Below are positions 13,401-52,500 of a stretch of DNA of 64,000 nucleotides, one piece after another. A program made the translations under genes and the position numbers. The stretch comes from Pristiophorus japonicus. Lineage: Eukaryota. Location: the NCBI RefSeq assembly GCF_044704955.1, contig NC_091994.1, positions 95,108,001-95,172,000 of the forward strand, written 5' to 3'. The notes beneath the pieces were generated by a model that was not told where the DNA came from, did not search any database, and saw nothing but the letters and a program-made list of their open reading frames with translations. Positions within the stretch are counted from its first letter, which is position 1, and every line of letters begins with the position of its first letter.

Positions 13401-15639
13401 TCATCTACCCATTCCAGGGTTGAAGATCTCCACAACCCCTCCCGCAGTGGTTTTGAAACTCCAGCCTGATTTCCATTCGCTGGGCAAGATTTAGGAGCCA
13501 AATGGGCCTCCCCAGCACAGCTCACCAGCTTGGGGGCCCAGAGATTCCACAAGGAAGATGAGTCGTGGTGGGTCGGGATGGGGGGGAGAGAGGGTGTCAC
13601 GATCACGGAAGACGGGGTGGGGAGGGTCACATTGGTGGGAGGGGTTTGGATTGTGTGGGACGGGGGGGGAGGTGGCCGTGGTGCTGGCGGGGGCTTGAAG
13701 AGAGTAGAGGTCATGAGGGGTATTGGGGAGGGTGGGGGTCCGGGGTGGGGTGGAGTCGTGAGTGTCGGTTGCGGGGGGGAGCTGGGGTTCACGGAGGCAG
13801 CGACCCAGATTATTTCAGTGGGTCACTCCTGCTCCTCCGGAGCTAACAGAAATAACTCGCCACTTGACTTTGCTGAACCTCTTCTCTTCCATTGCCAGTG
13901 GTACTGGTTGGAGTCAGCATGGTGCAGGGCCTGCCCAGTTCGGTCCTAAAATGGCTATCGAGGTCCTATTCATGACGTAGGACCCCAGTTTCCATATTAA
14001 ATGGGACGGACGGCCTGAATCAGGCCGGAGCTTTGGAGGAAGGCCACTTTCAAAATGGTGGCGGCCGCATCGCTGGTGTTAATGGGACGGAAAGGACATA
14101 GACCTCATTCTGTGACTGTTACTTCCCAGGTTAATGCCCGATGAGGGCTGTGAAAATCAAGCTCTCCCTGATTTAAACGGAGCATAATCTTTGTCTTCCT
14201 GTAGGTACCATGGGCAAATTGGTGCATCAGTGATCGTCGGGGGTGTGGACTGCACTGGGCCCCACCTGTACACCGTGTATCCTCACGGTTCCACGGACAT
14301 ACTGCCCTATGTCTCCATGGGTAAGGAACAGTTAACCGACAGGGTCTATAGGGTTAATCTGCTAAACAGGACAGGGGCTGGTAACTCTGAGAAATTCCAA
14401 CTGAATGGGAATTGGATAAATAACTTGAAAAGGAAAGATTTGCAGGGCTACGGGAAAAGAGCAGGAGACGGTTGGGCTAATTGGACAGCTGTTTCAAAGA
14501 GCTGGCACAGGCATGATGGGCCGAATGGCCTCCTTCTGCACTATATGGTTCTATGATTTACCCAGGGTCCATCTCTGTGCTCAGTTAGCGGGGGGGGGGG
14601 GGGGTGGCTGAGTTGGCCTCAGTACCCTGTTTCCAGCTGCGACCACAGTCTGCTGACTGTCCCAGGAAAGACAGGATCTGGTTGGATGGATTGCGGCAGG
14701 TTTCATCACATGACCTCCGGCTGCCCCCGCCTCCCCCTTTCCCCCCCCGCCTCCCCCTTTCCCCCTTTCCCCCCCCGCCTCCCCCTTTCCCCCCCCGCCT
14801 CCCCCTTTCCCCCTTTCCCCCACCCCCCCCCCCCCCCCAGGCTCCCACCATTAGTCACCAGACATGTCAAATCATTCTGAGACCCCGCCTTCCTCTTTCA
14901 ATTGGAAGGCAAGTAGTTTGTACCCGGATTGGTTGATTCTTGACTGTCGGTCAAGCAGCCCTTTTACCCATTTCCCACATTTTTATAATTAAGAAACTTC
15001 CCAATAATTATTGCATAAGAACATAAGAAATAGGAGCAGGAGTAGGCCATTTGGCCCCTCGAGCCTGCTCCGCCATTCAATGAGATCATGGCTCGCAGCA
15101 GTGGCCGGGATTTTATCTTTAATTGCTGGGGTCTCCAGGATAATCTGTGAGAGTTGACCCTAACTGATGTCCCCTGGTCAAGTAGCCTGGCTAGGCTCAC
15201 TCGCTGGGCTCCACGGGAAGCATGGGCAGGTGCGCTGGGTACCAGAGGGTGTCCAGTACCCTGGGACTGCAGCCCAGGGAGAGTCAGCACTTCAGGAAGG
15301 GGGGGAGAGATAACGCTTTGACCAGGTCAAGTTTCCTGTCTTGTTTTTCAAACCCTAGCCTGTTGTTTAATTCGGACGGCCCATGTTGGGGACTGTGGAC
15401 GGTAGGCCAGGGGCGAGGGTTTTACCGGGACAGTAATGAGTGTCCGTGTGCCTCCTGTCCGACAGGTTCTGGCTCCTGTGCTGCCATGGCTGTTCTGGAG
15501 GATCGTTTCAAGCCAGACATGGAGGTAAGTGACTGACTCGACGGGTATCGAGCACGCACTGCGCCATCCCCTCCCCCGCTGTCGCCATGGCAACACCTCC
15601 AGCCCAGAACCCCCGAGCTCAACAATCACTGATGGGGAG

Positions 15640-15692
<53 letters not shown>

Positions 15693-18600
15693 GGGGCCAT
15701 TGCACCAGTTTTACACGGGACTTACGCCAATCACTCCTCCGATAGGTATGCAAATGAGCAGACCCAGGAAACGCTCGGTTAAGTACCTCACCAACCACTG
15801 GGTGGTGCAAATCCTCTCCCATTGGCGCAAGAGCCGGAGCTGGATGAAGAATTCTCAGTGTTCTGGACACCAACACATTTGGGGTCTCTCCCCAACCCCG
15901 GCACCATCCCCCACCCTCCCCGGCATCATCCCCCACCCTCCCCGGCACCATAAGAACATAAGAATTAGGAACAGGAGTAGGCCATCTAGCCCCTCGAGCC
16001 TGCTCCGTCATTCAAAAAGATCATGGCTGATCTGGCCGTGGACTCAGCTCCACTTACCCGCCCGCTCCCCATAACCCTTAATTCCCTTATTGGTTAAAAA
16101 TCTATCTATCTGTGATTTGAATACATTCAATGAGCTAGCCTCAACTGCTTCCTTGGGCAGAGAATTCCACAGATTCACAACCCTCTGGGAGAAGAAATTC
16201 CTTCTCAACTCGGTTTTAAATTGGCTCCCCCGTATTTTGAGGCTGTGCCCCCTAGTTCTAGTCTCCCCGACCAGTGGAAACAACCTCTCTGCCTCTATCT
16301 TGTCTATCCCTTTCATTATTTTAAATGTTTCTATAAGATCACCCCTCATCCTTCTGAACTCCAACGAGTAAAGACCCAGTCTGCTCAATCTATCATCATA
16401 AGGTAAACCCCTCATCTCTGGAATCAGCCGAGTGAATCATCTCTGTACCCCCTCCAAGGCTAGTATATCCTTCCTTAAGTAAGGTGACCAAAACTGCACG
16501 CAGTACTCCAGGTGTGGCCTCACCAGTACCCTATACAGTTGCAGCAGGACCTCCCTGCTTTTGTACTCCATCCCTCTCGCAATGAAGGCCAATATTCCAT
16601 TCGCCTTCCTGATTACCTGCTGCACCTGCAAACTAACTTTTTGGGATTCATGCATAAGGACCCCCAGGTCCCTCTGCACAACAGCATGTTCTAATTTCTC
16701 CCAATTCAAATAATATTCCCTTTTACTGTTTTTTTTCTCCAAGGTGGATGACCTCACATTTTCCGACATTGTATTCCATCTGCCAAACCTTAGCCCATTC
16801 ACTTAACCTATCTAAATCTCTTTGCAGCCTCTCTGTGTCCTCTACACAACCCGCTTTCCCACTAATCTTTGTGTCATCTGCAAATTTTGTTACACTACAC
16901 TCTGTCCCCTCTTCCAGGTCATCTATGTATATTGTAAACAGTTGTGGTCCCAGCACCGATCCCTGTGGCACACCACTAACCACCGATTTCCAACCCGAAA
17001 AGGACCCATTTATCCCGACTCTCTGCTTTCTGTTAGCCAGCCAATTCTCGATCCATGCTAATACATTTTCTCTGACTCCGCGTACCTTTATCTTCTGCAG
17101 TAACCTTTTGTGTGGCACCTTATCGAATTGCCTTTTGGAAATCTAAATACACCACGTCCATCGGTACATCTCTATCCACCATGCTCGTTATATCCTCAAA
17201 GAATTCCAGTAAATTAGTTAAACATGATTTTCCCTTCATGAATCCATGTTGCGTCTGCTTGATTGCACTATTTCTATCTAGATGTCTCGCTATTTCTTCC
17301 TTAATGATAGCTTCAAGCATTTTCTCCACTACAGATATTAAACTAACCGGCCTATAGTTACCTGCCTTTTGTATGCCCCCTTTTTTAAACAGAGGCGTTA
17401 CATTAGCTGCTTTCCAATCCGCTGCCCAGAGTCCAGAGAATTTTGGTAGATTATAACGAATGCATCTGCTATAACTTCTGCCATCTCTTTTAATACCTTG
17501 GGATGCATTTCATCAGGACCAGGGGACTTGTCTACCTTGAGTTCCATTAGCCTGTCCAGCACTACCTCCCTAATGATAGTAATTGTCTCAAGGTCCTCCC
17601 TTCCCACATTCCCGTGACCAGCAATTTTTGGCATGGTTTTTGTGTCTTCCACTGTGAAGACCGAAGCAAAATAATTGTTTAAGGTCTCAGCCATTTCCAC
17701 ATTTCCCATTATTAAATCCCCCTTCTCATCTTCTAAGGGACCAACATTTACTTTAGTCACTCTCTTCCGTTTTATATATCGGTAAAAGCTTTTACTATCT
17801 GTTTTTATGTTTTGCACAAGTTTACTTTCGTAATCTATCTTTCCTTCCTTTATTGCTTTCTTAGTCATTCTTTGCTGTCGTTTAAAATTTTCCCAATCTT
17901 CTATTTTCCCACTAACCTTGGCCACCTTATACACATTGGTTTTTAGTTTGATACTCTCCTTTATTTCCTTGGTTATCCACAGCTGGTTATCCCTTCTCTT
18001 ACCGCCCTTTTTCACTGGAATATATTTTTATTGAGCACTATGAAAGAGCTCTTTAAAAGTTCTCCACTGTTCCTCAATTGTGCCACCGTTTAGTCTGTGT
18101 TCCCAGTCTACTTTAGCCAACTCTGCCCTCATCCCACTGTAGTCCCCTTTGTTTAAGCATAGTACGCTCGTTTGAGACACTACTTCCTCACCCTCAATCT
18201 GTATTACAAATTCAACCATACTGTGATCACTCATTCCGAGAGGATCTTTTACTCGGAGATCGTTTATTATTCCTGACTCATTACACAGGACCAGATCTAA
18301 GATAGCTTGCTCCCTTGTAGGTTACATAGAAACATAGAAAATAGGTGCAGGAGTAGGCCATTCGGCCCTTCTAGCCTGCACCGCCATTCAATGAGTTCAT
18401 GGCTGAACATGCAACTTCAGTACCCCATTCCTGCTTTCTCACCATACCCCTTGATTCCCCTAGTAGTAAGGACTCCATCTAACTCCTTTTTGAATATATT
18501 TAGTGAATTGGCCTCAACAACTTTCTGTGGTAGAGAATTCCACAGGTTCACCACTCTCTGGGTGAAGAAATTCCTCCTCATCTTGGTCCTAAATGGCTTA

Positions 18601-21600
18601 CCCCTTATCCTTAGACTGTGTCCCCTGGTTCTGGACTTCCCCAACATTGGGAACATTCTTCCTGCATCTAACCTGTCAAACCCCGTCAGAATTTTAAACG
18701 TTTCTATGAGGTCCCCTCTCATTCTTCTGAACTCCAGTGAATACAAGCCCAGTTGATCCAGTCTTTCTTGATAGGTCAGTCCCGCCATCCCGGGAATCAG
18801 TCTGGTGAACCTTCGCTGCACTCCCTCAATAGCAAGAATGTCCTTCCTCAGGTTAGGAGACCAAAACTGTACACAATACTCCAGGTGTGGCCTCACCAAG
18901 GCTCTGTACAACTGTAGCAACACCTCCCTGCCCCTGTACTCAAATCCCCTCGCTATGAAGGCCAACATGCCATTTGCTTTCTTAACCGCCTGCTGTACCT
19001 GCATGCCAACCTTCAATGACTGATGTACCATGACACCCAGGTCTCGTTGCACCTCCCCTTTTCCTAATCTATCACCATTCAGATAATAGTCTGTCTCTCT
19101 GTTTTTACCACCAAAGTGGATAACCTCACATTTATCCACATTCTAAGAAACAATCCCGTATGCATTCTATGAATTCCTCCTCCAGGCTACCCCGTGCGGT
19201 TTGATTTGACCAATCGATATGTAGGTTAAAATCCCCCATGATTACTGCCATTCCTTTTTCACATGCCTCCATTATTCCCTTGATTATTGTCCGCCCCACC
19301 GTGAAGTTATTATTTGGGGGCTTATAAACTACGCCCACTAGTGACTTTTTCCCCTTACTATCTCTAATCTCCACCCAAAATAATTCAACATTTTGTTCAT
19401 TAGAGCCAATATCATCTCTCACAACTGCCCTGATATCATCCTTTATTAACAGAGCTACCCCACCTCCTTTCCCTTCTTGTCTATCCTTTCGAATTGTCAG
19501 ATACCCCTGTATGTTTAATTCCCAGTCTTGGCCACCCTACAACCACGTTTCTGTAATGGCCACCAAATCATACCCATTTGTAATGATTTGTGCCGTCAAC
19601 TCATTTACTTTATTTCGAATCCTGCATGCGTTTAGGTAGAGTGTTTTAATACTAGTTTTTAAACCATGATTTTTAGTTTTGATCCCTCCTGCAGCCCCCT
19701 TATATTCATACATATTGTCCCTTCCTATCACCTTGTGGTTTACCCTTGCCCCAGTGCTACTCTGCTCTGTTGCCTCCTGCCTTTTGCATTATTTCTTGGG
19801 GTCCTGTTCATCTGAGCTCTCACCCACTCTAACTAGCTCAGAGCCCTCTCCTGGGTTCCGAATACTCCTCGCATTGAGGCACAAGGCTTTCAGGCTTGCC
19901 TTTTTATTACACTTTGACCCTTTAGAATTTTGCTGTACAGTGGCCCTTTGTGTTTTTTGCCTTGGGTTTCTCTGCCCTCCACTTTTCCTCATCTCCTTTC
20001 TGTCTTTTGTTCCCGTCTCCATTTTGTTTCCCTCTGTCTCCCTGCATTGGTTCCTATCCCCCTGCCATATTAGTTTAACTCCTCCCCAACAGCACGAGCA
20101 AACACTCCCCCTAGGACATTGGTTCCGGTCCTGCCCAGGTGCAGACCATCCGGTTTGTACTGGTCCCACCTCCCCCAGAACCGGTTCCAATGCCCCAGGA
20201 ATTTGAATCCCTCCCTGCTGCACCACTGCTCAAGCCACGTATTCATCTGAGCTATCCTGCGATTCCTACTCTGACTAGTGCGTGGCACTGGTAGCAATCC
20301 CGAGATTACTACTTTTGAGGTCCTACTTTTCAATTTAGCTCCTAGCTCCTTAAATTCGTCTCATAGAACCTCATCCCGTTTTTTACCTATATCGTTGGTA
20401 CCTATATGTACCACGACAACTGGCTGTTCACCCTCCCTTTTCAGAATGTCCTGCACCCGCTCCGAGACATCTTTGACCCTTGCACCAGGGAGGCAACATA
20501 CCATTCTAGAGTCTCGGTTGCGGCCGCAGAAACGTCTATCTATTCCCCTTACAATCGAATACCCTATCACTATTGCTCTCCCACTCTTTTTCCTGCCCTC
20601 CTTTGCAGCAGAGCCTGCCACGGTGCCATGAACCTGGCTGCTGCTGCCCTCCCCGGCACCATCCTCCGCCGTCCCCGGCACCATCCTCCGCCCTCCCCGG
20701 CACCATCCTCCGCCCTCCCCGGCACCATCCCCCGCCCTCCCCGGCACCATCCCCCGCCCTCCCCGGCACCATCCCCCGCCCTCCCCGGCACCCTCACCCC
20801 GCCCTCCCCGGCACCCTCACCCCGCCCTCCCCGGCACCCTCACCCCGCCCTCCCCGGCACCCTCACCCCGCCCTCCCCGGCACCCTCACCCCGCCCTCCC
20901 CGGCACCCTCACCCCGCCCTCCCCGGCACCCTCACCCCGCCCTCCCCGGCACCCTCACCCCGCCCTCCCCGGCACCCTCACCCCGCCCTCCCCGGCACCC
21001 TCACCCCGCCCTCCCCGGCACCCTCACCCCGCCCTCCCCGGCACCCTCACCCCGCCCTCCCCGGCACCCTCACCCCGCCCTCCCCGGCACCCTCACCCCG
21101 CCCTCCCCGGCACCCTCACCCCGCCCTCCCCGGCACCCTCACCCCGCCCTCCCCGGCACCCTCACCCCGCCCTCCCCGGCACCCTCACCCCGCCCTCCCC
21201 GGCACCCTCACCCCGCCCTCCCCGGCACCCTCACCCCGCCCCCCTCACCCCGCCCTCCCCGGCACCCTCACCCCGCCCTCCCCGGCACCCTCACCCCGCC
21301 CTCCCCGGCACCCTCACCCCGCCCTCCCCGGCACCCTCACCCCGCCCTCCCCGGCACCCTCACCCCGCCCTCCCCGGCACCCTCACCCCGCCCTCCCCGG
21401 CACCCTCCCCAGCAGCCCCCCTCCCCCACCCTCCGGCATCCTCCCCAGCACCATGAAAACGCAGACATGTAGAAAAATGCATGAAGAAATAGGCTATAGA
21501 ATATTTACACACTGCGTTATTAATAAAGTGCTTATCACAGTACCTTGTACTACTGCACATTGCCTGCATCTTTTCTGTGTTATGGTGAGTTACCCTTGGG

Positions 21601-23046
21601 TACTCTGGCCCTGGGATACTCCGCCCCGGGGCTCTGGGTTACTTTGCCCCTGGGATACTCCATCCTGGAGCCCTGAGTTACTCCAGCCCTTGGATACTCC
21701 GCCCGGGGCTCTGGATTACTCCAGCCCTGGGATACTCCGCCCCAGAGCCCTGGTTTACTCCGGGCCCTGGTTTACTCCGGCACTGGTTGACTACAGCCCT
21801 GGGATACTCCATCCTGGAGCCCTGAGTTACTCCAGCCCTTGGATACTCCGCCCTGCGCCCTGGTTTACTCCAGCCCTGGGATACTCTGCCCCGGAGCCCT
21901 GGGATACTCTGGGTCCTGGGTTACTCTGGCCCTGGTTTACTCTAGCCCTTGGATACTCCGCCCCGGGGCTCTGTGTTACTCTGGCCCTGGGCCCTGGGTT
22001 AATTCACCCCCTGGGCACCGTCGTGTGGAATCTCAGCTCCCACAGCTCTCTCTCAGGCCAGTTATCTGTCTCTAGGAGGAAGCAGCCAAGCAGCTGGTCC
22101 GTGAGGCCATCATATCCGGAATATTCTGTGACCTTGGCTCCGGGAGTAACGTTGACCTCTGCGTCATCACCAAAAACAAGACAGAGTTTCTCCGCGCCTT
22201 CGACATGCCCAACAAGAAGGGCACAAAGTAAGTACCCAGCTCCCAGGAGCATTCATCGGGAGAACAGGGACCAATCTGGGGCCATTGTGGGGGCAAATCT
22301 CTATAAACAGAGGCATAGAGTACTGAAGTAAGGAAGTTATACTGAACCTTTATAAAACACTGGTTAGACCTCAGCTGGAGTATTGTGTCCAATTCTGGAC
22401 ACCACACTTTAGGAATGATGTCACGGTCTTAGCGAGGGTGCAGCAATGATTTACAAGAATGGTACCAGGGATGGGTGGCTGCAGTTATGTGGAGAAGCTG
22501 GGGTTGTTGGCCTGAGAACACAGATGGTTAAGAGGAGATTTAATTGAGGTGTTGTGACGTTATTTAAAATGATGAAGGGTTTTGCTAGAGTAAATAGAGA
22601 GGGTCGATAACCAGAGGACACCGAGTTAAATAATTGGTAAAAGAATCAGGGGACGATGAGAATTATTTTCACGCAGCGAGTTGTTGCGATCTGGATCTGA
22701 CAGGAAGCAGATAAATAGTAACTTTCAAAAGGGAACTGAATAAATTCTCGAAGGGGATAAATGTGCAGGATGAGAGGAATGGGACTATCAGATCGCTCTT
22801 TCAAAGAGCTGCACAGGCTCGATGGGCCGAATGGTCTCCCTCTGTGCTGCCTCATTCAATGACCCCCACCCTCACACTGCCATTCACCCCACCCCCCCAT
22901 GTGTCCTGTTAATTTCCGCTGTCGTTTCCTGCAGGGAGGGTGTGTATCACTACAAGAAGGGCACCACTGCTGTGCTGACAGAGACGGTCACTCCGTTAGA
23001 AATTGAGCTGGTGGATGAGGTTGTGCAGAGGATGGACACTGAGTAA
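7385..23046 (+). CDS. PSMB10: Proteasome subunit beta-2i (PSMB10/MECL-1-like), join(7385..7449,9864..9957,10268..10365,12902..13042,14205..14320,15466..15524,22076..22227,22935..23046), 278 aa
   Basis: Eight GT-AG exons in consistent phase give an uninterrupted frame. The 44-aa propeptide ends in RKTG, followed by mature [21 protein letters not shown] with Thr1/Asp17/Lys33 intact. [18 protein letters not shown] and LEDRF plus the upstream IRF element favour PSMB10 over PSMB7. Confidence 0.85.
7861..9039. mobile_element. PIF/Harbinger-like MITE with a nested CR1 3' fragment (8133-8660)
   Basis: Imperfect TIRs GGAGCTGAAATTGCCTCC / GGGGGCAATGTTGGCTCC, TGA duplicated on both sides. The nested part encodes [20 protein letters not shown]. 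Confidence 0.65.
9331..9772 (-). mobile_element. Deu-domain SINE, near full length
   Basis: tRNA-like head with A and B boxes (on -), Deu core, L2-like tail. Confidence 0.8.
9864..9957 (+). CDS. PSMB10: PSMB10 exon 2 (catalytic Thr1 codon at 9931)
   Basis: [31 protein letters not shown]; CAG acceptor, GTAACT donor. Confidence 0.93.
10268..10365 (+). CDS. PSMB10: PSMB10 exon 3
   Basis: [32 protein letters not shown]; donor GTAAGT. Confidence 0.93.
10683..12258 (+). mobile_element. 5'-truncated CR1 LINE (RT region, frameshifted)
   Basis: [20 protein letters not shown] and KFADDTK motifs; TTCTATG tail; possible TTCGCT target-site duplication. Confidence 0.92.
12261..12899. repeat. ~30-bp minisatellite (CTCTCCCTGTGATATTAACCCCTCACACA), about 21 units, with further units at 10585-10682
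   Basis: Direct inspection. Confidence 0.92.
12902..13042 (+). CDS. PSMB10: PSMB10 exon 4
   Basis: [46 protein letters not shown]. Confidence 0.93.
14205..14320 (+). CDS. PSMB10: PSMB10 exon 5
   Basis: [38 protein letters not shown]. Confidence 0.93.
14670..15162. mobile_element. Second copy of the hAT-like element with a C-rich tract; short CR1 tail nested at about 15015-15092
   Basis: GGTTTCATCACATGACCTCCG and GATTCTTGACTGTCGGTCAA shared with 250-1027; ends GAGTTGACCCTA. Confidence 0.5.
15466..15524 (+). CDS. PSMB10: PSMB10 exon 6
   Basis: [20 protein letters not shown]; donor GTAAGT. Confidence 0.93.
15643..15688. repeat. (CT)n microsatellite
   Basis: Perfect dinucleotide run. Confidence 0.95.
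15948..20654 (-). mobile_element. Composite CR1: disrupted ORF2 (EN+RT) plus 3' part of esterase ORF1, with a second CR1 3' end nested at 18323-19142
   Basis: [25 protein letters not shown] and KFADD motifs; ORF1 VHIGTND and DGLHL; two separate CR1 3' tails at 15948 and 18323. Confidence 0.92.
20646..21450. repeat. 22/23-bp GC-rich minisatellite (CCCCGGCACCCTCACCCCGCCCT), over 30 units
   Basis: Direct inspection; G-quadruplex-like on the - strand. Confidence 0.95.
21590..22000. repeat. Degenerate tandem repeat (TACTC...CCCTGG modules, ~17-21 bp)
   Basis: Recurrent TACTCC/CCCTGG. Confidence 0.85.
22076..22227 (+). CDS. PSMB10: PSMB10 exon 7
   Basis: [50 protein letters not shown]. Confidence 0.93.
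22305..22855 (+). mobile_element. Degraded CR1 3' fragment
   Basis: CTGGAGTATTGTGTCCAATTCTGG and a GATGGGCCGAATGG tail. Confidence 0.75.
22935..23046 (+). CDS. PSMB10: PSMB10 exon 8
   Basis: [36 protein letters not shown]. Confidence 0.93.
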
Positions 23047-23233
23047 CAAGAAGCACATCATCATCTCTCCAAGGTCCAGCAGGAGGATCGAGACAAGCAA
23101 TTCCTGTTCGAAACAAAAGGATTTTGTATCTGGCATTACATTCCTGCCATGTGATTGTAAACACATTGTTGCCTGATAGATTTTATCCTTAACACATTGT
23201 ATCCAGTACATGTATTGTGCAATTTAATCTCCA

Positions 23234-23239
23234 AATAAA
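23234..23239 (+). terminator. PSMB10 polyadenylation signal
   Basis: AATAAA about 190 nt after the stop codon. Confidence 0.65.
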
Positions 23240-23321
23240 GCAGGGGAAGGTGATGTGGATGTTAACATCTGTCTTATTTGGATCTGAGGAGGAGAACCAC
23301 ATGTTTGCAAAACATTCAGCT

Positions 23322-23447
23322 TTTATTCATCAACCAAAGCAGAGATACAACAATCTGAAATGCTTAATTAATCTTTAATAAGTGGTGATTTGCTTATTAA
23401 GTAGCGGAATATATTTACATACTTTCGGTCAGCGTCAGACGTTTATT
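23322..23447 (-). terminator. UTS2 candidate polyadenylation signals
   Basis: TTTATT on the + strand (AATAAA on -) at 23442-23447 and 23322-23327. Confidence 0.6.
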
Positions 23448-23504
23448 AAAAATTACCACGAGAGAAAAGAATGATCGTTTTGAAACCCGGGTGGGCGGCC
23501 GACT

Positions 23505-23621
23505 TCAAACACAGTATTTCCAAAAACAGTCTGAGAAGTTGTTACGTTTCTTGTATTGTTTTCTGCCCTTTCCAGTGAGGAGGCTGCTGGACCCCGGCTG
23601 TGCTTTCCTTCCATATAGAAT
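23505..23621 (-). CDS. UTS2: UTS2 coding exon 4 (mature peptide at 23543-23508)
   Basis: Acceptor CTCTCTGCAG; KKR-NNFSDCFWKYCV-TGA. Confidence 0.97.
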   Translation of the reverse strand: MLYGRKAQPGSSSLLTGKGRKQYKKRNNFSDCFWKYCV

Positions 23622-26600
23622 CTGCAGAGAGCATCAGAATAGAGACTGGTTGCCGAGGGTTCAAAGGATATTTTACATTTTCATTTTTACCGGCGCTTCT
23701 TACATTGTATTTCCCATCCCCACTGCAACCCTGCACCGAGCCCACCCAAATCCCTACACAACCCCACCTCTACCTGCACCCATCCCGGCCCCCAACAGGT
23801 GGCATTGTCTGGTGGGTACAGTTCCAAAGGTTCCAGACTCCCTGACTTACCTCACCCACATATCCATCCTTCATGGGTGAACTGAGACAGTAAATATAAG
23901 CAGGCTTTTCAACTGTGACCGCACTCCCTATCAAACTTCCTTCAAACAGGGCAGGTACAGCAATGGTTAAATACAGAGTAAAGCTCCCTCTACACTGTCC
24001 CTTCAAACACTCCCAGGGCAGGTACAGGTGAGGGACTGACGGACAGGTGTGCTGACTCTCTAAAAGCAATAGTGCCTCAGATTTCTCTCCCACGTTCTGA
24101 ACACTCACCTCTTTCAGGGTTCCGGATTGGTTGTCACTGATTTCCCTCAGACCTGTTGAGAAAGAAGGAAGATTCAGTTCAACTCCTGGACACAACAGAT
24201 GGACGAGATCCCACAGCTTCATCCTCAGAGCCCACAGCAGGTGATGGGATAAGTCTGAGGTATAAAGACAGAATCCACAGAGGGGAGCAGAGGATAAATC
24301 CTGTAAGTCTGGAATGCGAGGATGAAGCTTTCTTTGATGGGAGAAGATGGCAGTGCATCAAATCTCCAGGTCACATTGAATCCAATCCAGTACAGCATAG
24401 GTTAGATACAGAGTAACGCTCCCTCTACACTGTCCCATCAAACACTCCCAGGGCAGGTACAACACAGGTTGGATACAGAGTAAAGCTCCCTCTACACTGT
24501 CCCATCAAACACTCCCAGGGCAGGTACAGCACGGGTTAGATACAGAGTAAAGTTTCCTCTACACTGTCCCATCAAACACTCCCAGGGCAGGTACAGCACG
24601 GGTTAGATACAGAGTAAAGCTCCTCTACACTGTCCCATCAAACACTCCCAGGGCAGGTACAGCATGGGTTAGATACAGAGTAATGCTCCCTCTACACTGT
24701 CCCATCAAACACTCCCAGGGCAGGTACAGTACGGGTTAGATACAGAGTAAAGCTCCTCTACACTGTCCCATCAAACACTCCCAGGGCAGGTACAGCACGG
24801 GTTAGATACAGAGTAAAGTTTCCTCTACACTGTCCCATCAAACACTCCCAGGGCAGGTACAGCACGGGTTAGATACAGAGTAAAGCTCCCTCTACACTGT
24901 CCCAACCTCAGAAGATGAAGATCCTCTACTACACCATTGTGGCCATTTTTTCCATTTCCTGCACAAGCCATTCTGTAGCCACGTTGATTACCAACTAGTG
25001 GTGAAGCAGAGGCGGATCTTTTGCCACTGTTCAAACGCATATAATTTACAGTCGGCAGACATGGGAGATTAATTTATTCTGGCTCATTTCAAACCCAGAT
25101 CCCAGATTTGCAGTACTGATTCCCCACCACAAGGTGTCACCAGCATTCTTAGTAAACACCGAGTTAGCATTCGGTACACAAAACTTGCTAAAGACATCTG
25201 GAGGCCAGACATTGTAACTGCACCGTGTCAACCCTCCTTCAATTTGGCTATCTAAACTCGGTGAGAGTGGAAGTGGAGCTCGGTTATTGCAGCCCGCAAT
25301 CGGTGCACGGTACCATTATTATATTGTTCAGCGGCTTCTAGATCTCTGCTGGCATCATAGAGGCTGTCCTTGGCTATCACAGCAGGTGGGCTCCACAGAA
25401 GGAAGGTGTTGTCCAAGCTTTGCAAATCGTCCCGATTTAAGGATTGATTTTCCTCGCTGGACACTAGAAGGAAATTATTTGAGCATTAGAACATCGGAAG
25501 AGCAAAGGCCATTTAGCCCATCGTCCACTCCTTCCAGAGCCCACATCTGATTAATGTATCTGCGACTCCCACCCATCACCTGATAACCCTCTACTTTATG
25601 GAACACTTAAGTCCTTTCACCGACCTCACTGTAATATCTCACATTAAGGTCTCATCTTATATTACATCGCAGTTAATATTTTCTAAACCCCCAATCCCCT
25701 GCTCAACAAATATCAACCCAGTTCCAGGTTTCAACTGACCAAAAATCTGCTCTTTTCATTAGGTGTTGGTTCCTCAAGTCCATTGTCCAGTGGGAATTAT
25801 TATTCCTCTGATTTCCAACCTTGCGCAGATGATGTAGTAGAGTCAATGTACACAGACCTGTACCCCAGTGAGTGTTAGTATCTGTGGGACTGTACCCCAG
25901 GGAGAGTCAGTGTCTGTGGGACTGTACCCCAGGGAGAGTCAGTGTCTGTGGGACTGTACCCCAGTGTGAATCAGTTTCTGTGGGACTGTAGCCCAGTGAG
26001 AGTCAGTGTCTGTGGAACTGTACCCCCCGTGTGAATCAGTGTCTGTGGGACTGTACCCCAATGAGAGTCAGTGTCTGTGGGACTGTACCCCAGTGAGTGT
26101 CAGTGTTTATGGGACTGTACCCCATGTGAATCAGTTTCTGTGGTGGGGACTAAGGCAATGGCATTAGATTTCTCAATATTTAGTTGGAGCAAATTTCTGC
26201 TGATCCAGCGGTGGTGGTGAGGTAGAGCTGAGTATCGTCAGTGTACATGTGGAACCTGACGTCGTGTTTTCGGATGGTGTCGCTGAGGGGCAGCATGTAG
26301 ATGAGCAATAGGAGAGGCCAAGGATAGATCCTTGGGGGATGCTAAGGTTTATGGTGCAGGGTCGGGTAGAGAAGCCATTACAGGTGAATCTCTGTCTACA
26401 ACTGGTTGGATAGGAATGGAAATAGGCGAGGGCAATCTCACCCTGCTGGATGACGGAAGAGAGGCATTAGGGGAGGGTATTCTGGTCAACTGTGTCAAAG
26501 GCTGCCGGCCAGTCATGAAGGACGAGGAGGGATAGTTTACTATGGTCACACTCACATAGGGTGTCACTTGTGACTTGAACAACGTAGGGAAGAAATGGAA

Positions 26601-27839
26601 GAAAAAATTGCCATCTAAAATCAAAGCTGTTACTATTTCCACATGTAAATTGAGAACAAAAGACACACAAACAAATAACAAATAAAAAGAAACAGCCACC
26701 AAATGTGTGCTTCCAGCACTAGTACCTGAATCAGAGAGGCAGCCCCACTCTCACCATAAACTGGGTGAAATTTATACTGGATGTTAAATATTAATCTTCT
26801 CATCGCTCAGCATTCTGCTATAATACTGAAAGCTCAGGCTTTGAAACCACTGATCTGTATTTTTAGTTTAACACTAGTAATTACATTTGTTAGAAAGTAA
26901 ATTGATTTGTCATTTAATCTTGGCAACTAAACTCTGCCCCCAGCCCGAGAATAGTGGATGTAATTACAGTTCATCAAACAAACAGAAAAATAGAAATTTA
27001 AACCGAATGTGAGAGAGAAGGTTTAACTAAAACTGCATCACCTTCAGAACTAGATCCGAAACTCAACTTTGTACAGTCCAATCCCAAGCAACAAAACATT
27101 GATTCAAAGTTAAAACACACCCAAATCCATCCTATTCAGGAATCCTGTGCACATTAAAAGCACCAAAAACATGATTGTTTAATTTAATTATAAATTCCAG
27201 AGTTAATTAACTTTAACATTTTAATGTATAAACTTATACAAGAATAGTTATCATCTATAACACCTAATAATACAGAAATAAAATACAAAGAACTTCCATT
27301 TATATAGTGCCTTTCACAACCTCATAACGTCCCAAAACGTTTTGGAGCCAATGAAGTACTTTTGAAGTGTCATCACTGTTATAATGTAGGAAACGCGGGA
27401 GCAGGATCCTACAAACTGAAAATGACCAGATAATCTGTTTTAGTGATTTTGGTTAAGGGATAAATATTGGCCAGAACTCCCCTACTCTTTTTCTAATAGT
27501 GCTGCGGGATCTTTTACATCCACCTGAGAGGGCAGACGGGGCCTCGGTTTAATGTCTCATCTCAAAGACGGCACCTCCGACAGTGCAGCACTCCGTCAGT
27601 ACTGCACTGGAGTGTTTTTACATGGTACAGGTACTTCCTATTATATTGAGGTATGGAGATGAGTGAACGATGATGGTCACACTGGATAAGGTTCAGTGGA
27701 GGTTGTCCTCCTCACCCCACCTCCCCTCCTCCCGCTGTCCCCACTTACCTGCTCTGTACCAGGAGTCTGCAATGGGCAGAGCAAAGACATAGGATCCACT
27801 GAGAAGCAATGCACCAGCTACAAGCATCAAGGACATCAT
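23505..27839 (-). CDS. UTS2: Prepro-urotensin II, complement(join(23505..23621,24109..24152,25314..25463,27749..27839)), 133 aa
   Basis: Signal peptide MMSLMLVAGALLLSGSYVFALP. Intron phases 1,1,0 are consistent. The last exon reads ILYGRKAQPGSSSLLTGKGRKQYKKR-NNFSDCFWKYCV*, with the CFWKYC ring, an acidic residue before it and a KKR cleavage site. Confidence 0.93.
24109..24152 (-). CDS. UTS2: UTS2 coding exon 3 (44 nt)
   Basis: Acceptor TTCTTTCTCAACAG; GLREISDNQSGTLKE; donor GAG|GTGAGT. Confidence 0.85.
24388..24903. repeat. 67-bp satellite, about 7.7 units; ~1 further unit at 23945-24027
   Basis: CTCTACACTGTCCCATCAAACACTCCCAGGGCAGGTACAGCACGGGTTAGATACAGAGTAAAGCTCC. Confidence 0.95.
25314..25463 (-). 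CDS. UTS2: UTS2 coding exon 2
   Basis: Acceptor TTTCCTTCTAG; VSSEENQSLNRDDLQSLDNTFLLW...EQYNN. The donor ATG|GTACCG is weak but is the only phase-1 GT in the open stretch. Confidence 0.72.
25850..26150. repeat. 32-bp minisatellite, about 9 units
   Basis: TCTGTGGGACTGTACCCCAGGGAGAGTCAGTG. Confidence 0.92.
26160..26575 (-). mobile_element. L2 RT-domain fragment
   Basis: FHMYTDDTQLY (YADD box) and AAFDTVD remnants. Confidence 0.7.
27287..27615 (-). mobile_element. Deu-domain SINE, headless
   Basis: Same family as 9331-9772. Confidence 0.78.
27749..27839 (-). CDS. UTS2: UTS2 coding exon 1 (signal peptide)
   Basis: MMSLMLVAGALLLSGSYVFALPIADSWYRA; donor CAG|GTAAGT. Confidence 0.88.
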
Positions 27840-27924
27840 GATGGAAAGAGACTGAGATACAATGAGAGAGAGTGAGAGAGAGAGAGAGAGAGCAGAGGTG
27901 TATATCCAGCACTGAACACTTACC

Positions 27925-27932
27925 TATATATA
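27925..27932 (-). promoter_or_regulatory. Candidate UTS2 TATA box
   Basis: TATATATA about 90 nt upstream of the ATG on the - strand. Confidence 0.55.
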
Positions 27933-28409
27933 ACCCTGCAGCCCCCTCCCCCTCATAAAAAACATAGCACTATCAATAACATACCATTTTATTACCTTGA
28001 GTTGTTAAATCCAATCAGCGCTTCATTCTAACTCTTTTTCAAGGATAAAACAAGAAAGCAGATGGGACACAGATTTACTGCCCATCACCAAAGTCAAAAA
28101 TAATATACCCATCTAATTTACTTCTCTCCGTCCCGTCCCGGGTTGAAAGAGTTATTTATTATTCACAAACTCAGTGACGCAGATATATCCAACAGGTTTT
28201 GACATGATTTGTATTTATTATTGAATTAATTAATTGTTTCTTTTTAAACATTTTTTTGCAGATGTTACACTGAGAGTCTCTTAAAGAGTCCTCTCCCCCT
28301 CTGCTCTCCTTCCCATACGCTGCTCTCAATTGATCCAACAATTTTATAAAGCTCCACACCCCTCCCCCCATCTAATTCAATTCTTTTTCTTCATGTAAGA
28401 ATGCCAGTG

Positions 28410-29090
28410 TTTATCCTCCACATGAGCCTTCTACCACCCTATTCCATCTCATCGTACAAACATATCCTTCCATTCCTTTCACCCTCATGTACTTATCCAG
28501 CTTTCCATTAAATGCATCTGTGCTATTTGCCTCAACTACTCCCTGTGGTAGTGAATTCCACAATGTTACCACTCTCCTGCTAAAGAAGTTCCTCCTGAAT
28601 TCATTATTGGATTTCTTAGTGACTATCTTATATTTACGGCCCCCAGTTCTGGTCTCCCCCACAAATGAAAACATCTTCTCTACGTCTATCCTATCAAACC
28701 CTTCCTAATCTTAAAGACCTCTATTAGGGCATCCATCATCCTTCTCTTTTCTAGAGAAAGGAGCCCCAGGCTGTTCAGTCTTTCCTGATAGTTGTACCCT
28801 CTCATTTCTAGTATCATCCTTGTAAATCTTTTCTGCATACTCTTCAGTTCCTCAAAATCCTTTTTGTAATATGGAGACTAGAATTGTGTGCGGTACTCCA
28901 AGTGTGGTCCAACCAAGTTTCTAGATAAGTTTCTTATAGCTCTGCTTTTCAATCCTATTCCTTGAGAAATTAAACCCAGTGCATTTGTTAGTATTTTTGA
29001 TGGCCTTGTTAATCTGCGTTGCTACTTTTAATGATTTATGAATCTGTACCCCCAGATCCCTCTGTTCCCAACCCCATTTAGACTCTTGTT
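28410..29090 (-). mobile_element. Degraded CR1 3' fragment
   Basis: FRRNFFSRRVVTLWNSLP. Confidence 0.8.
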
Positions 29091-37312: not shown

Positions 37313-37361
37313 ATGACTGAAATCGCAATCGATCAATCCAATCTCCCTCGGGTGCAAGAAG
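37313..37361 (+). CDS. CCDC50-like coding exon 1 (exon probably starts at 37255)
   Basis: GCAATGA start; donor AAG|GTGAGA; upstream acceptor TTTATTTTAG at 37254. Confidence 0.85.
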
Positions 37362-46587: not shown

Positions 46588-49500
46588 TTCTCTCCCCACC
46601 CCTCTTAGACCTGAGAACTTCCCTCCGTACAATCGACAGAATGTGAGGTAAATCTGGGGCCTTTCTGCTCTGAGGCCTGGTGTGTGTATTTGAGAGAACG
46701 CTCAGGCCTCCCGTGCAGCATTTCCTTGACCCGGAGCCAGGATTCCACTGTCGGACTAACCCTGACGTCTCCATGGTAACGGTGCTGCTAATACAATCCC
46801 TGCAGCCGTTTCCTTGACCTGGGGGTTGGGGGGCTCTGCTATACAATCCACTTGTCTGAATGACAGAAAGTAGTTTTGTGAAAGGAATGACCTTTGACCT
46901 CTCGCACCCAGTAGCCGCCTCCTGTTTGGCAGTTGCTCAGGCAGCACGCAGACACACAAGGAATTTCATCCTGGTTTATTTTACAGCTGTCTTGCAGTGG
47001 GACGCCGGTGAACTGGCAACTCCCCCAGTCCTCAGTGGGGTACAGCGGTGAGTAGCTATGGGGAGGCCACCTCAAACAGGAGGAGGTCATTGCGCCTGTT
47101 TGACCATCAAATTGTTTTGGCCAGAAAGTGAAAACAGGCTCTAAATGAAGGCAGTGCTATTAAGATTAGGCCCGTTGAAAGTCCGGATTTGGCAGACAAT
47201 TTTGGTCCTAATTGCTGCTTACCATCATTGGAACTTGCCTGGAGGAGCTTGCCAGAAAACTGCAGGTTTAGCACTCAAGTGCTGATTGGACACAATTTTC
47301 GTGGAGCAGTATAGAAACATCGAAACATAGAAAATAGGTGCAGGAGTAGGCCATTCGGCCCTTCTAGCCTGCACCGCCATTCAATGAGTTCATGGCTGAA
47401 CATGCAACTTCAGTACCCCATTCCTGCTTTCTCGCCATACCCCTTGATCCCTCGAGTAGTAAGGACTTCAACTAACTCCTTTTTGAATATATTTAGTGAA
47501 TTGGCCTCAACAACATTCTCACCCACTCTCTGGGTGAAGACGTTTCTCCTCATCTCGGTCCTAAATGGCTTACCCCTTATCCTTAGACTGTGACCCCTGG
47601 TTCTGGACTTCCCCAACATTGGGAACATTCTTCCTGCATCTAACCTGTCTAAACCCATCAGAATTTTAAATGTTTCTATGAGGTCCCCTCTCATTCTTCT
47701 GAACTCCAGTGAATACAAGCCCAGTTGATCCAGTCTTTCTTGATAGGTTAGTCCCGCCATCCCGGGAATCATCCTGGTGAACCTTCGCTGCACTCCCTCA
47801 ATAGCAAGCATGTCCTTCCTCAGGTTAGGAGACCATTGTACACAATACTCCAGGTGTGGCCTCACCAAGGCCCTGTACAACTGTAGCAACACCTCCCTGC
47901 CCCTGTACTCAAATCCCCTCGCTATGAAGGCCAACATGCCATTTGCTTTCTTAACTGCCTGCTGTACCTGCATGCCAACCTTCAATGACTGATGTACCAT
48001 GACACCCAGGTCTCGTTGCACCTCCCCTTTTCCTAATCTGTCACCATTCAGATAATAGTCTGTCTCTCTGTTTTTACCACCAAAGTGGATAACCTCACAT
48101 TTATCCACATTATACTTCATCTGCCATGCATTTGCCCACTCACCTAACCTATCCAAGTCGCTCTACAGCCTCATAGCATCCTCCTCGCAGCTCTCACTGC
48201 CACCCAACTTAGTGTCATCCACAAATGTGGAGATACTACATTTAATCCCCTCGTCTAAATCATTAATATACAGTGTAAACAGCTGGGGCCCCAGCACAGA
48301 ACCTTGCGGTACCCCACTAGTCACTGCCTGCCATTCTGAAAAGTACCCATTTACTCCTACTTTTTGCTTCCTGTCTGACAACCAGTTCTCAATCCATGTC
48401 AGCACACTACCCCCAATCCCATGTGCTTTAACTTTGCACATTAATCTCTTGTGTGGGACCTTGTCGAAAGCCTTCTGAAAGTCCAAATATACCACATTAA
48501 CTGGTTCTCCCTTGTCCACTCTACTGGAAACATCCTCAAAAAATTCCAGAAGATTTGTCAAGCATGATTTCCCTTTCACAAATCCATGCTGACTTGGACC
48601 CATCATGTCACCTCTTTCCAAATGCGCTGCTATGACATCCTTAATAATTGATTCCATCATTTTACCCACTACCGATGTCAGGCTGACCGGTCTATAATTC
48701 CCTGTTTTCTCTCTCCCTCCTTTTTTAAAAAGTGGGGTTACATTGGCTACCCTCCACTCGATAGGAACTGATCCAGAGTCAATGGAATGTTGGAAAATGA
48801 CTGTCAATGCATCTGCTATTTCCAAGGCCACCTCCTTAAGTACTCTGGGATGCAGTCCATCAGGCCCTGAGAATTTATCGGCCTTCAATCCCATCAATTT
48901 CCCCAACACAATTTCCCGACTAATAAGGATTTCCCTCAATTCCTCCTCCTTACTAGACCCTCCGACCCCTTTTATATCCGGAAGGTTGTTTGTGTCCTCC
49001 TTAGTGAATACCGAACCAAAGTACTTGTTCAATTGGTCCGCCATTTCTTTGTTCCCCGTTATGACTTCCCCTGATTCTGACTGCGGGGGACCTACGTTTG
49101 TCTTTACTAACTTTTTTCTCTTTACATATCTATAGAAACTTTTGCAATCCGTCTTAATGTTCCCTGCAAGCTTCTTCTCGTATTCCATTTTCCCTGCCCT
49201 AATCAAACCCTTTGTCCTCCTCTGCTGAGTGCTAAATTTCTCCCAGTCCCCGGGTTCGCTGCTATTTCTGGCCAATTTGTATGCCACTTCCTTGGCTTTA
49301 ATACTATCCCTGATTTCCCTTGATATCCACGGTTGAGCCACCTTCCCTTTTTTATTTTTACGCCAGACAGGAATGTACAATTGTTGTAGTTCATCCATGT
49401 GGTCTCTAAATGTCTGCCATTGCCCATCCACAGTCAACCCCTTAAGTATCATTCGCCAATCTATCCTAGCCAATTCACGCCTCATACCTTCAAAGTTAGC

Positions 49501-52500
49501 CGCCTTTAAGTTCTGGACCATGGTCTCTGAATTAACTGTTTCATTCTCCATCCTAATGCAGAATTCCACCATATTATGGTCACACTTCCCCAAGGGGCCT
49601 CGCACAACGAGATTGCTAATTAATCCTCTCATTACACAACACCCAGTCTAAGATGGCCTCCCCCCTCGTTGGTTCCTCGACATATTGGTCTAGAAAACCA
49701 TCCCTTATGCACTTCAGGAAATCCTCCTCCACCGTATTGCTTCCAGTTTGGTTAGCCCAATCTATGTGCATATTAAAGTCATCCATTATAACTGCTGCAC
49801 CTTTATTGCATGCACCCCTAATTTCCTGTTTGATGCCCTCCCCAACATCACTACTACTGTTTGGAGGTCTGTACACACCTCCCACTAACGTTTTTTGCCC
49901 TTTGGTGTTCTGCAGCTCTACCCATATAGATTCCACATCATCCAAGCTAATGTCCTTCCTAACTATTGCATTAATCTCCTCCTTAACCAGCAATGCTACC
50001 CCACCTCCTTTTCCTTTTATTCTATCCTTCCTGAATGTTGAATACCCCTGGATGTTGAGTTCCCAGCCCTGATCATCCTGGAGCCACGTCTCTGTAATCA
50101 CAATCACATCATATTTGTTAACATCTATTTGCTCAGTTAATTCATCCACCTTATTACAGATACTCCTTGCATTAAGACACAAAGCCTTCAGGCTTGTTTT
50201 TTTAACACCCTTTGTCCTTTTAGAATTTTGCTGTACAGTGGCCCTTTTTGTTCTTTGCCTTGGGTTTCTCTGCCCTCCACTTTTCCTCATCTCCTTTCTG
50301 TCCTTTGCTTTTGTCTCCTTTTTTGTTTCCCTCTGTCTCCCTGCATTGGTTCCCATTCCCCTGCCATATTAGTTTAACTCCTCCCCAACAGCACTAGCAA
50401 ACACTCCCCCGAGGACATTGGTTCCGGTCCTGCCCAGGTGCAGACCGTCTGGTTTGTACTGGTCCCACCTCCCCCAGAACCGGTTCCAATGCCCCAGGAA
50501 TTTGAATCTCTCCCTGCTGCACCACTGCTCAAGCCACGTATTCATCTGCGCTATCCTGCGATTCCCACTCTGACTAGCACGTGGCACTGGTAGCAATCCC
50601 GAGATTACTACTTTTGAGGTCCTACTTTTTAATTTAGCTCCTAGCTCCTTAAATTCGTTTCGTAGGACCTCATCCCGTTTTTTACCTATGTTGTTGGTAC
50701 CAATGTGCACCACGACAACTGGCTGTTCTCCCTCCCTTTTTAGAATGTCCTGCACCCGCTCCGAGACATCCTTGACCCTTGCACCAGGGAGGCAACATAC
50801 CATCCTGGAGTCTCGGTTGTGGCCGCAGAAACGCCTATCTATTCCCCTTACAATTGAATCCCCTATCACTCGCTCTCCCACTCTTTTTCCTGCCCTCCTG
50901 TGCAACAGAGCCAGCCACTGTGCCATGAACTTGGCTGCTGCTGTCATTCCCCCCACCACCCCCCCCAACAGTACCCAAAGCAGTGTATCTGTTTTGCAGG
51001 GGGATGACCACAGGGGACACCTGCACTACCTTCCTTGCACTGCTCTTCCTGCTGGTCTTCCATTCCCTATCTGGCTGTGGACCCTTTCCCTGCGGTACGA
51101 CCAACTCGCTACACGTGCTACTCACGTCATTCTCAGCATCGTGGATGCTCCAGAGTGAATCCACCCTCAGCTCCAACTCCGCAACGCGGTCCGTCAGGAG
51201 CTGGATACACTTCCCGCACACGTATTCGTCAGGAACACTGGTGTCGTCCCTGAGTTCCCACATGGTACAGGAGGAGCATAACACGTGACCGAGCTGTCCT
51301 GCCATGACTTAACCCTTAGATAGGCAACAACAATGTTAAAGTTTACTCACTGTTATAGAAGAAAAAAAAGAAAAACTACTCACCAATCACCAGCCAATCA
51401 CTTACCCCCTTGGCTGTGACGTCACCTTTCTGTTTCTTTCTACTTTTTTGCCTTCTCTCTCTAGCTGCACAAGTACGCACCTCCTCGACCTTTTATAGGC
51501 CTCACCAACAGATTCACGCTGCTCTCGACTGCCGCCGCGTTGGGCCTTTATAGGCCTCTCGCCGACCCCGGAACTCACGCCTCTCCACACACCTCCTCAC
51601 GCTGCTCACGTATATGTGGGCTCCTCGAACCTACTTTCACTGAAGGTGGGGAGTGCTCTGGCTGGCACACACCGGCACGTTGCAGGATGGCTCCGGGTCC
51701 AAGGGAGAGGGTGCAGTGGATGCGCCATTGGAGGTTCTGATGGAGGGGGGATATCCTGTACCCACATGGAGGGAAGGACGCTACCTCGCCCTCCTGTCCC
51801 TCTCTCCTGCAGCAGCTGGTACTGCTCTGCCTGGTCTCGTGTCCTCCCATTTCTCATCCCCTAGAAAGATGCCAATGATTAAGCATTTCCTTTCTCCAGG
51901 GGACTCCTGTAAGATAGAATAGTAGAGCACTTGCTCTTTTTAGGTGAAGTCCTCACAGAATTTCCAGAATAAATGTTGCTTGAGTGTTGGTGAAGTCTTG
52001 ACAAAGTGTCCCAGAAAATCTCCTGATGTGTTTGAGATCCTCTTCTCAGCTCCAATAGCAATGAACATGAAATGATGAGTATCCTTTTAAGTAGCTCTTG
52101 AAATCGACATCAGCGTTGTGCAAAGTGCGTCAGTTGAAGGGCTAGACACCTAAATGCCATTCAGCCTCTTTAATGAGCGCTAGCAGCCATTTTAATTGGC
52201 AATCAGCTGTTTAACAATCTCCCAGCAGCCGTTCCTAGTGCTGGCTTCAACTCCTTTACCAAGATGGCGCCTTGCACAAAACATGGGCTAAACCGGAGTT
52301 TCAGCTTAAAACTCCATCTTGGCCATCTCGGAGGCTATTTAGCTCCTGAAGTATTCAGTGAAACTTGTCCCTTATGGCTCCATCTCCCCGGCTTGGTTCC
52401 ATATTCCTTAATTCCAAAAATATATAAATCTCCGTTGTGAGCTATTCAATTGATCAACAGCTTTTTTTTTGGGGGGGGGGGCCAGGCCTCGGGTTTAATT

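What the first reader, a model, noticed from the sequence alone, without database searches (positions are those of the whole stretch)
23505..27839. A complete prepro-urotensin II gene that the ORF track does not reveal
Seen: four short minus-strand exons splice into a 133-aa precursor ending KKR-NNFSDCFWKYCV. Established: CFWKYC is the urotensin II ring, and NNFSDCFWKYCV is the sequence I recall for dogfish UII. The acidic residue before Cys and the N-terminal extension indicate UII rather than URP (ACFWKYCV). This gives the full precursor and gene structure for an elasmobranch caudal neurosecretory hormone.
Basis: partly seen in the sequence, partly recalled or inferred. Interest (0 to 1): 0.7.

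Follow-up and report, generated by a model that had tools for sequence, protein, structure and literature searches.

The report
Shark urotensin II gene, already annotated
This is the ordinary, intact gene for the shark hormone urotensin II: four coding exons give a 133-residue precursor, identical to a protein already in public databases, that likely releases the same 12-residue ring-shaped peptide as in other sharks.

Summary
Four minus-strand GT-AG exons give 133 codons plus a stop. The product matches all 132 residues of a UniRef 'urotensin-2-like' entry, which is probably the annotation of this same species. It is 101/133 identical to catshark and whale-shark RefSeq precursors, and the last 12 residues are invariant in 7 of 7 homologues. 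Contigs of a related shark (one study; RNA status guessed) join exon 2 to exon 3 exactly at the weak GTACCG donor position, and exon 3 to exon 4. Junction 1 and expression in this species were not seen. It is UII rather than URP: it lies between ERRFI1 and a CAMTA gene, and three other genome loci fit URP, URP1 and URP2. Full elasmobranch precursors are already in RefSeq, so the implied novelty fails. One side point: a CCDC50 paralogue sits head to head with the gene, mirroring URP-CCDC50. This scan noted that block earlier in elephant shark.

The parts
27749..27839 (-). Coding exon 1 (91 nt, two tandem ATGs): predicted signal peptide, about residues 1-20, and start of the pro-region; strong donor CAG|GTAAGT
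   Evidence: hydropathy 2.0-2.7 at the N-terminus, donor 12.6 bits; 29/29 to P0001, 25/30 to P0004; -3,-1 pattern after residue 20; no SignalP run
25314..25463 (-). Coding exon 2 (150 nt, phase 1-1, so skipping it would keep the frame): pro-region
   Evidence: 34/48 to P0004, 36/49 to P0007; 3' end fixed by loose ends compared
25308..25313 (-). Weak intron-2 donor GTACCG
   Evidence: 1.6 bits; the orthologous joint is seen in contigs of runs X1 and X5 of a related shark (14/15 and 28/30 letters match window 25315 onward)
24109..24152 (-). Coding exon 3 (44 nt)
   Evidence: (the X1 contig lies on 24109-24153, one base ambiguous, with exon 2 and exon 4 letters on either side)
23505..23621 (-). 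Coding exon 4 (117 nt): end of the pro-region, KKR site, mature peptide, TGA
   Evidence: the X1 contig stops at 23621; its loose end matches exon 4 at 27/30
23544..23552 (-). Lys-Lys-Arg, predicted prohormone convertase site
   Evidence: sequence; conserved in 7 of 7 homologues; cleavage inferred
23508..23543 (-). Predicted mature urotensin II, 12 residues with the Cys-Phe-Trp-Lys-Tyr-Cys ring; calculated monoisotopic mass 1522.60 with the disulfide
27925..27932 (-). TATA-like box 93 nt upstream of the ATG (candidate promoter)
   Evidence: consensus match only
23322..23447 (-). Two AATAAA polyadenylation-signal candidates (23447, 23327) in the 3' UTR
   Evidence: a relative's contig runs down to 23277

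Best explanation
This is the shark UTS2 gene: four coding exons encode a 133-residue precursor ending in KKR and a 12-residue CFWKYC ring peptide, which is likely secreted, cut at KKR and closed by a disulfide to give urotensin II. Shown here: the reading frame, the splice dinucleotides, identity with annotated shark precursors, junctions 2 and 3 in a related shark's contigs, and the position between ERRFI1 and a CAMTA gene. Inferred: signal-peptide cleavage near residue 20, convertase cleavage at KKR, and the Cys-Cys bond. From the literature, not tested here: expression mainly in caudal neurosecretory (Dahlgren) cells, and action through UT/UTS2R G-protein-coupled receptors, for example raising blood pressure as dogfish UII does in dogfish.
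For: Open 402-nt frame with canonical introns. Pfam hit over the cut-off. Seven named shark UII proteins among 24 candidates. The model is 132/133 identical to P0001 and 101/133 to both XP_038629232.1 and XP_020368918.1, with no alignment gap at junctions 2 or 3 in any of the 7; 4 of the 5 homologues that span junction 1 have no gap there. tblastn of the homologues against the window recovers the same four blocks independently of my model. Contigs in 2 of 4 runs of one study join exon 2 to exon 3 at 25314/24152, and one joins exon 3 to exon 4. ERRFI1 lies 1.35 Mb to one side, a CAMTA gene 1.45 Mb to the other, and a Pro2-type somatostatin is on the same contig. Human 1p36 placement of UII and cortistatin: PMC3533682 and PMC6148080, passages read; the ERRFI1-UTS2-CAMTA1 order is recalled. 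The three other family loci have a candidate acceptor 2 nt before the first Cys codon, as expected of URP-type genes (PMC8354755 passage: the fifth exon alone encodes Urp2).
Against: P0001 is probably the automatic annotation of this species or assembly (two neighbouring genes also match entries of that species at 100%), so it is not independent support. The read evidence comes from a relative (19 differences and 8 gaps over 345 letters), from one study, from contigs of depth 3-5 whose RNA status is a guess; it does not show the relative's donor letters. Junction 1 was not seen in reads, and one homologue (P0005) has 23 extra residues there. The nearest upstream gene is CCDC50-like, a neighbour known for URP (PMC4319907 passage). 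No PER-family hit was found on this contig. PMC3474241 gives 5 exons for human UTS2, so exon number alone does not separate UII from URP.
Confidence: 0.97

Rival explanations
1. The gene is the URP (UTS2B) orthologue with a UII-like extension, because it sits head to head with CCDC50 as URP does in tetrapods.
For: CCDC50_N exons lie at window 56576-56647 and 58169-58288, on the opposite strand. ccdc50 lies close to uts2b in Xenopus (PMC4319907, passage).
Against: A second CCDC50 gene on contig C6 lies 187 kb from L003, which ends ACFWKYCV and has a candidate URP-type acceptor, with a somatostatin-14-type gene 2.8 Mb away. This locus is flanked by ERRFI1 and CAMTA. Five of the 7 homologues are named urotensin 2 alpha or urotensin-2-like, two prepro-urotensin II-beta(-like), and none URP.
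Confidence: 0.01
2. The gene is UTS2, but in this species the weak exon-2 donor leads to substantial exon-2 skipping (in frame, an 83-residue precursor with the same peptide) or to intron retention, so the 133-residue form is not the main product.
For: Donor score 1.6 bits; exon 2 is symmetric, phase 1-1, 150 nt. An earlier unreviewed note of this scan reports exon skipping in a chimaera UII gene (e1-8652147, not tested here).
Against: Exon 2 is conserved at about 70% identity across sharks. The relative's contigs contain the exon 2-3 joint. No stronger frame-keeping GT donor lies before the in-frame stop.
Confidence: 0.05
3. The locus is a silent or decaying copy.
For: No expression data for this species were obtained.
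Against: No stop or frameshift, intact KKR and ring, conserved signal region and pro-region. It was the only place in the genome matched by the precursor (best candidates only were scored).
Confidence: 0.01

Closest known systems
P0001, UniRef100_UPI00398F4EAB 'urotensin-2-like' (Pristiophorus japonicus)
   Same: All 132 residues are identical, across all three junctions.
   Different: It starts at the second of the two tandem Met codons (132 against 133 aa). Probably not independent of this genome.
Elasmobranch 'urotensin 2, alpha' precursors: Scyliorhinus canicula XP_038629232.1, Rhincodon typus XP_020368918.1
   Same: Same length (132 aa), 101/133 identity, same KKR site and same 12-residue C-terminus.
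   Different: About a quarter of residues differ, mostly in the pro-region. Some other shark entries are 5'-truncated (75 and 107 aa) or carry a 23-residue insert (P0005).
URP (UTS2B), URP1, URP2
   Same: Same CFWKYC ring. URP shares the CCDC50 neighbour.
   Different: Their mature peptide begins 1 residue before the ring and is encoded by a short last exon (PMC8354755 passage for urp2; candidate acceptors in L003, L005, L008). Here the last exon encodes 38 residues, including the cleavage site.
Human UTS2 (1p36)
   Same: Precursor of about 130 aa with a C-terminal cyclic peptide (PMC3474241, passage). ERRFI1 and CAMTA1 neighbourhood (order recalled; shark side tested).
   Different: 11-residue human peptide with a different N-terminus. 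The paper gives 5 exons. The immediate shark neighbours are PSMB7-like and CCDC50-like genes, not TNFRSF9 and PER3 (human neighbours recalled).

Membership tests
Urotensin II family (PF02083) | C-terminal cyclic hexapeptide CFWKYC | tested here: met
   (24.8 bits, cut-off 18.6); core named in PMC11109353 (passage)
Urotensin II family (PF02083) | Secreted precursor with an N-terminal signal peptide | tested here: inconclusive
   Hydrophobic residues 1-20 and a -3,-1 pattern after residue 20, conserved in homologues; SignalP was not available
Urotensin II family (PF02083) | Basic cleavage site directly before the mature peptide | tested here: met
   KKR at 23552-23544, in 7 of 7 homologues; cleavage itself is inferred
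UTS2 (UII proper) | N-terminal extension before the ring, with an acidic residue before the first Cys | tested here: met
   Five residues ending in Asp. N-terminal difference from URP: PMC11109353 and PMC3533682 passages. The acidic-residue rule is recalled and was not found in the passages searched.
UTS2 (UII proper) | Closest named relatives are UII precursors over the whole length | tested here: met
   no tree was built
UTS2 (UII proper) | Synteny with the human 1p36 block (ERRFI1, CAMTA1, cortistatin/SST2) | tested here: met
   ERRFI1 at C18:93.78 Mb; CAMTA at C18:96.6-96.8 Mb (CAMTA1 identity inferred); Pro2-type somatostatin at C18:78.67 Mb; PER not found on C18
UTS2 (UII proper) | Spliced transcript with the modelled junctions | tested here: inconclusive
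   Junctions 2 and 3 were seen in a relative's contigs. Junction 1 and this species were not covered.
UTS2 (UII proper) | Expression in caudal neurosecretory cells; activation of UT receptors | not testable with these tools
   Literature only: PMC4364556, PMC11109353, PMC3533682 (passages)
URP / URP1 / URP2 | Mature peptide starts one residue before the ring and is encoded alone by the last exon | tested here: not met
   Exon 4 encodes 38 residues. The pattern fits L003, L005 and L008 instead.

The most novel reading that the evidence does not exclude
Sharks keep two mirror-image blocks from vertebrate whole-genome duplication: UII head to head with a CCDC50 paralogue (9.5 kb apart, this window) and URP head to head with CCDC50 (contig C6). 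This elasmobranch also carries all four family genes (UII, URP, URP1, URP2). That would make the peptide-CCDC50 linkage older than the UII/URP split. The papers most likely to have said so already (Tostivint 2006, 2013, 2014; Vaudry 2015) were not read; the two I asked for were not held.
Probability: 0.6. Interest if true: 0.25.

Novelty: already known. Interest (0 to 1): 0.12.

Why it matters
Little. It confirms an existing automatic annotation and adds evidence from a relative that the unusual weak donor position is used. The hormone has been known from dogfish since 1992 (reference seen in the lists of PMC4364556 and PMC3493602), and full precursors are in RefSeq. The modest extra value is comparative: the gene model and the map of all four paralogues in one shark genome are usable for studies of urotensin and somatostatin family evolution.

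Tried and rejected
Sequencing-run search: no RNA holder was listed on record; 14 rows, all with small shares. In the 4 runs laid on the whole gene, cover was almost all intronic repeats; only X1 had an exon contig, and exons 1 and 2 had no cover. Runs X8 and X11 laid nothing on exon 3. I laid 7 of the 14 runs. PDB sequence search with exon 4: 0 matches. Pfam on exons 1 and 2: 0 families. Osteocrin (Musclin) search of the genome: nothing rang, including the controls, so it is uninformative. A motif scan of the window for an osteocrin-like gene gave only 2 hits inside LINE-like reading frames. PER search found only contig C6. Four of the 7 Pfam genome hits are family loci (this gene and L003, L005, L008); L004, L006 and L007 lack the full ring and were dropped. 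Alternative exon-2 donors: the frame-keeping GT sites downstream lie beyond an in-frame stop or score lower, so they were rejected. Literature: no full-text hit for the 12-residue peptide or for 'four exons/five exons'; one search listed 8 papers on urotensin with shark genomes, none with a shark UII precursor in its title; PMC1413727 and the 2015 IUPHAR review were not held. No structure or complex prediction was run, because none would change the verdict.

Full report
Observation. I read 22500-29000 on the minus strand and tested the four-exon model by coordinates. The exons are 27839-27749, 25463-25314, 24152-24109 and 23621-23505, with phases 1, 1, 0. They give 402 nt, that is 133 codons and TGA. 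All introns are GT-AG with pyrimidine-rich acceptors. The donors score 12.6, 1.6 and 11.5 bits on an approximate, recalled matrix, so the GTACCG donor at 25313 is indeed weak. The ring CFWKYC occurs once in the six frames of the window, against about 1e-4 expected by chance. Exon 4 passes the Pfam Urotensin_II cut-off. The N-terminus is hydrophobic, with a -3,-1 pattern after residue 20; SignalP was not available. An in-frame stop lies upstream of the ATG, so the frame does not extend 5'.

Already annotated. A search of longer proteins with the exon-4 frame returned 7 proteins among 24 candidates, all named shark urotensin II precursors. The model equals P0001 (UniRef 'urotensin-2-like', Pristiophorus japonicus) at all 132 of its residues; P0001 starts at the second Met. 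It is 101/133 identical to Scyliorhinus canicula XP_038629232.1 and to Rhincodon typus XP_020368918.1. KKR and the last 12 residues are invariant in 7 of 7. P0001 is probably not independent, because two other genes of this genome also match entries of that species at 100%. The catshark and whale-shark entries are independent. They align without gaps at all three junctions, and tblastn of the homologues recovers the same four blocks. P0005 has 23 extra residues at junction 1, and three entries are 5'-truncated.

Splicing evidence. No run on record as RNA was listed. With four runs laid on the whole gene, cover came mostly from intronic repeats, but one 405-nt contig of run X1 lay on 23277-23621 and stopped at the exon-4 acceptor with 60 letters left over. 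I then laid four runs of that study on the repeat-free stretch around exon 3. X1 covers exon 3 exactly. Its loose end on one side matches the start of exon 4 (27/30), and on the other side the end of exon 2 (14/15). X5 has a 142-letter loose end whose 30 shown letters match the end of exon 2 at 28/30, and it runs on into intron 3, as a partly spliced RNA would. X8 and X11 laid nothing. The exon 2-3 joint therefore falls at the position of the weak donor in a related shark. Limits: one study, a relative roughly 92-94% alike, contigs of depth 3-5, RNA status guessed, junction 1 not covered.

UII or URP. A genome search with PF02083 gave 7 matches. One is this gene, three lack the full ring, and three are URP-type. 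L003 ends ACFWKYCV, L005 ACFWKYCVTD and L008 ACFWKYCI, each with a pyrimidine-rich candidate acceptor 2 nt before the Cys codon. PMC8354755 (passages read) says the fifth exon alone encodes Urp2 and names rcan1 as a urp2 neighbour; L008 lies about 0.32 Mb from an RCAN gene. L003 lies 187 kb from a CCDC50 gene and 2.8 Mb from a somatostatin-14-type gene, which fits URP (PMC4319907 passage for ccdc50). L005 is URP1 by elimination and by a recalled tail; I did not test its neighbours. This window's gene lies between ERRFI1 (C18:93.78 Mb) and a CAMTA gene (96.6-96.8 Mb), with a Pro2-type somatostatin on the same contig. Human UII and cortistatin map to 1p36 (PMC3533682, PMC6148080, passages); the human gene order is recalled. 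No PER hit was found on this contig. The precursor matched only this place in the genome.

How it likely works. The inferred route is entry into the secretory pathway, removal of a signal peptide of about 20 residues, convertase cleavage at KKR and disulfide closure, giving a 12-residue peptide of 1522.60 Da. [quoted passage not shown] Dogfish UII raises arterial pressure in dogfish (PMC11109353, passage). UII and URP act on the GPCR UT (PMC3533682, passage). Lamprey, dogfish and skate UII are reported to be identical (PMC3493602, passage). I did not find the peptide's letters in print; the match to dogfish rests on the RefSeq precursor and on recall. None of the tissue or receptor steps was tested here.

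Neighbourhood. Downstream and convergent is a PSMB7-like proteasome gene; its stop is at 23044-23046, 458 nt from the UII stop. Upstream and divergent is a CCDC50-like gene; its likely first codon is at 37313, by resemblance to a recalled N-terminus with no Pfam hit. This mirrors the URP-CCDC50 pair on C6. I confirmed the CCDC50 part here but found no osteocrin-like gene (both weak tests).

Papers. I read passages only, through term searches, of PMC4364556, PMC8354755, PMC11109353, PMC3493602, PMC4992253, PMC3474241, PMC6148080, PMC3533682, PMC4319907 and PMC3483629. I opened no supplements; those of PMC8354755 (precursor alignment, synteny table) may bear on the shark paralogues. PMC1413727 and the 2015 IUPHAR review were not held. 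PMC3474241 gives 5 exons for human UTS2, so I do not use exon number as a family test.

Verdict. The gene is already known; interest 0.12.

Noticed in passing
window 37313 to at least 58288 (+): CCDC50-like gene head to head with UTS2, about 9.5 kb away; a second CCDC50 sits beside URP on contig C6. Likely a block retained from whole-genome duplication.
   Followed up: partly
window about 14188-23046 (+): PSMB7-like proteasome beta gene, convergent with UTS2, stops 458 nt apart. Whether it is PSMB7, PSMB10 or another paralogue was not resolved.
   Followed up: partly
L003 (C6:250.30 Mb), L005 (C6:102.71 Mb), L008 (C11:99.89 Mb): Likely last exons of URP, URP1 and URP2, so all four family genes appear present in this elasmobranch. 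PMC8354755 says urp1/urp2 were known only from ray-finned fishes; PMC4364556 cites elephant shark.
   Followed up: partly
window 27923-27852 (-): A perfect donor consensus (AG|GTAAGT) follows the TATA-like box, and a pyrimidine tract with CAG lies 12 nt before the ATG. This could be a 72-nt 5' UTR intron or an upstream non-coding exon; the protein would be unchanged.
   Followed up: no
window 26862-26827 (-), intron 1: Resembles the 23-residue insert of the zebra-shark model P0005 (7/12 identical, E=0.01 within the intron), but the frame is closed by a stop here. Possibly a conserved intronic element or a lineage-specific cassette exon.
   Followed up: partly
window exon 4, 2 nt before the first Cys codon: A CAG stands at the same position as the candidate acceptors of the URP-type loci, but with a poor pyrimidine tract (0.44). 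Probably a coincidence of the Ser-Asp codons.
   Followed up: no
L012, L015 (C18), L013 (C6), L014 (C20): Four somatostatin-family genes were found; two are on the UII contig, one Pro2-type and one divergent.
   Followed up: partly
window about 23950-24030, 24400-24905, 25860-26130, 27300-27615; also 16044-19536 and 47410-50368: High-copy intronic tandem repeats and interspersed elements, and LINE-like reverse-transcriptase/endonuclease frames recognised by eye in the ORF list.
   Followed up: no
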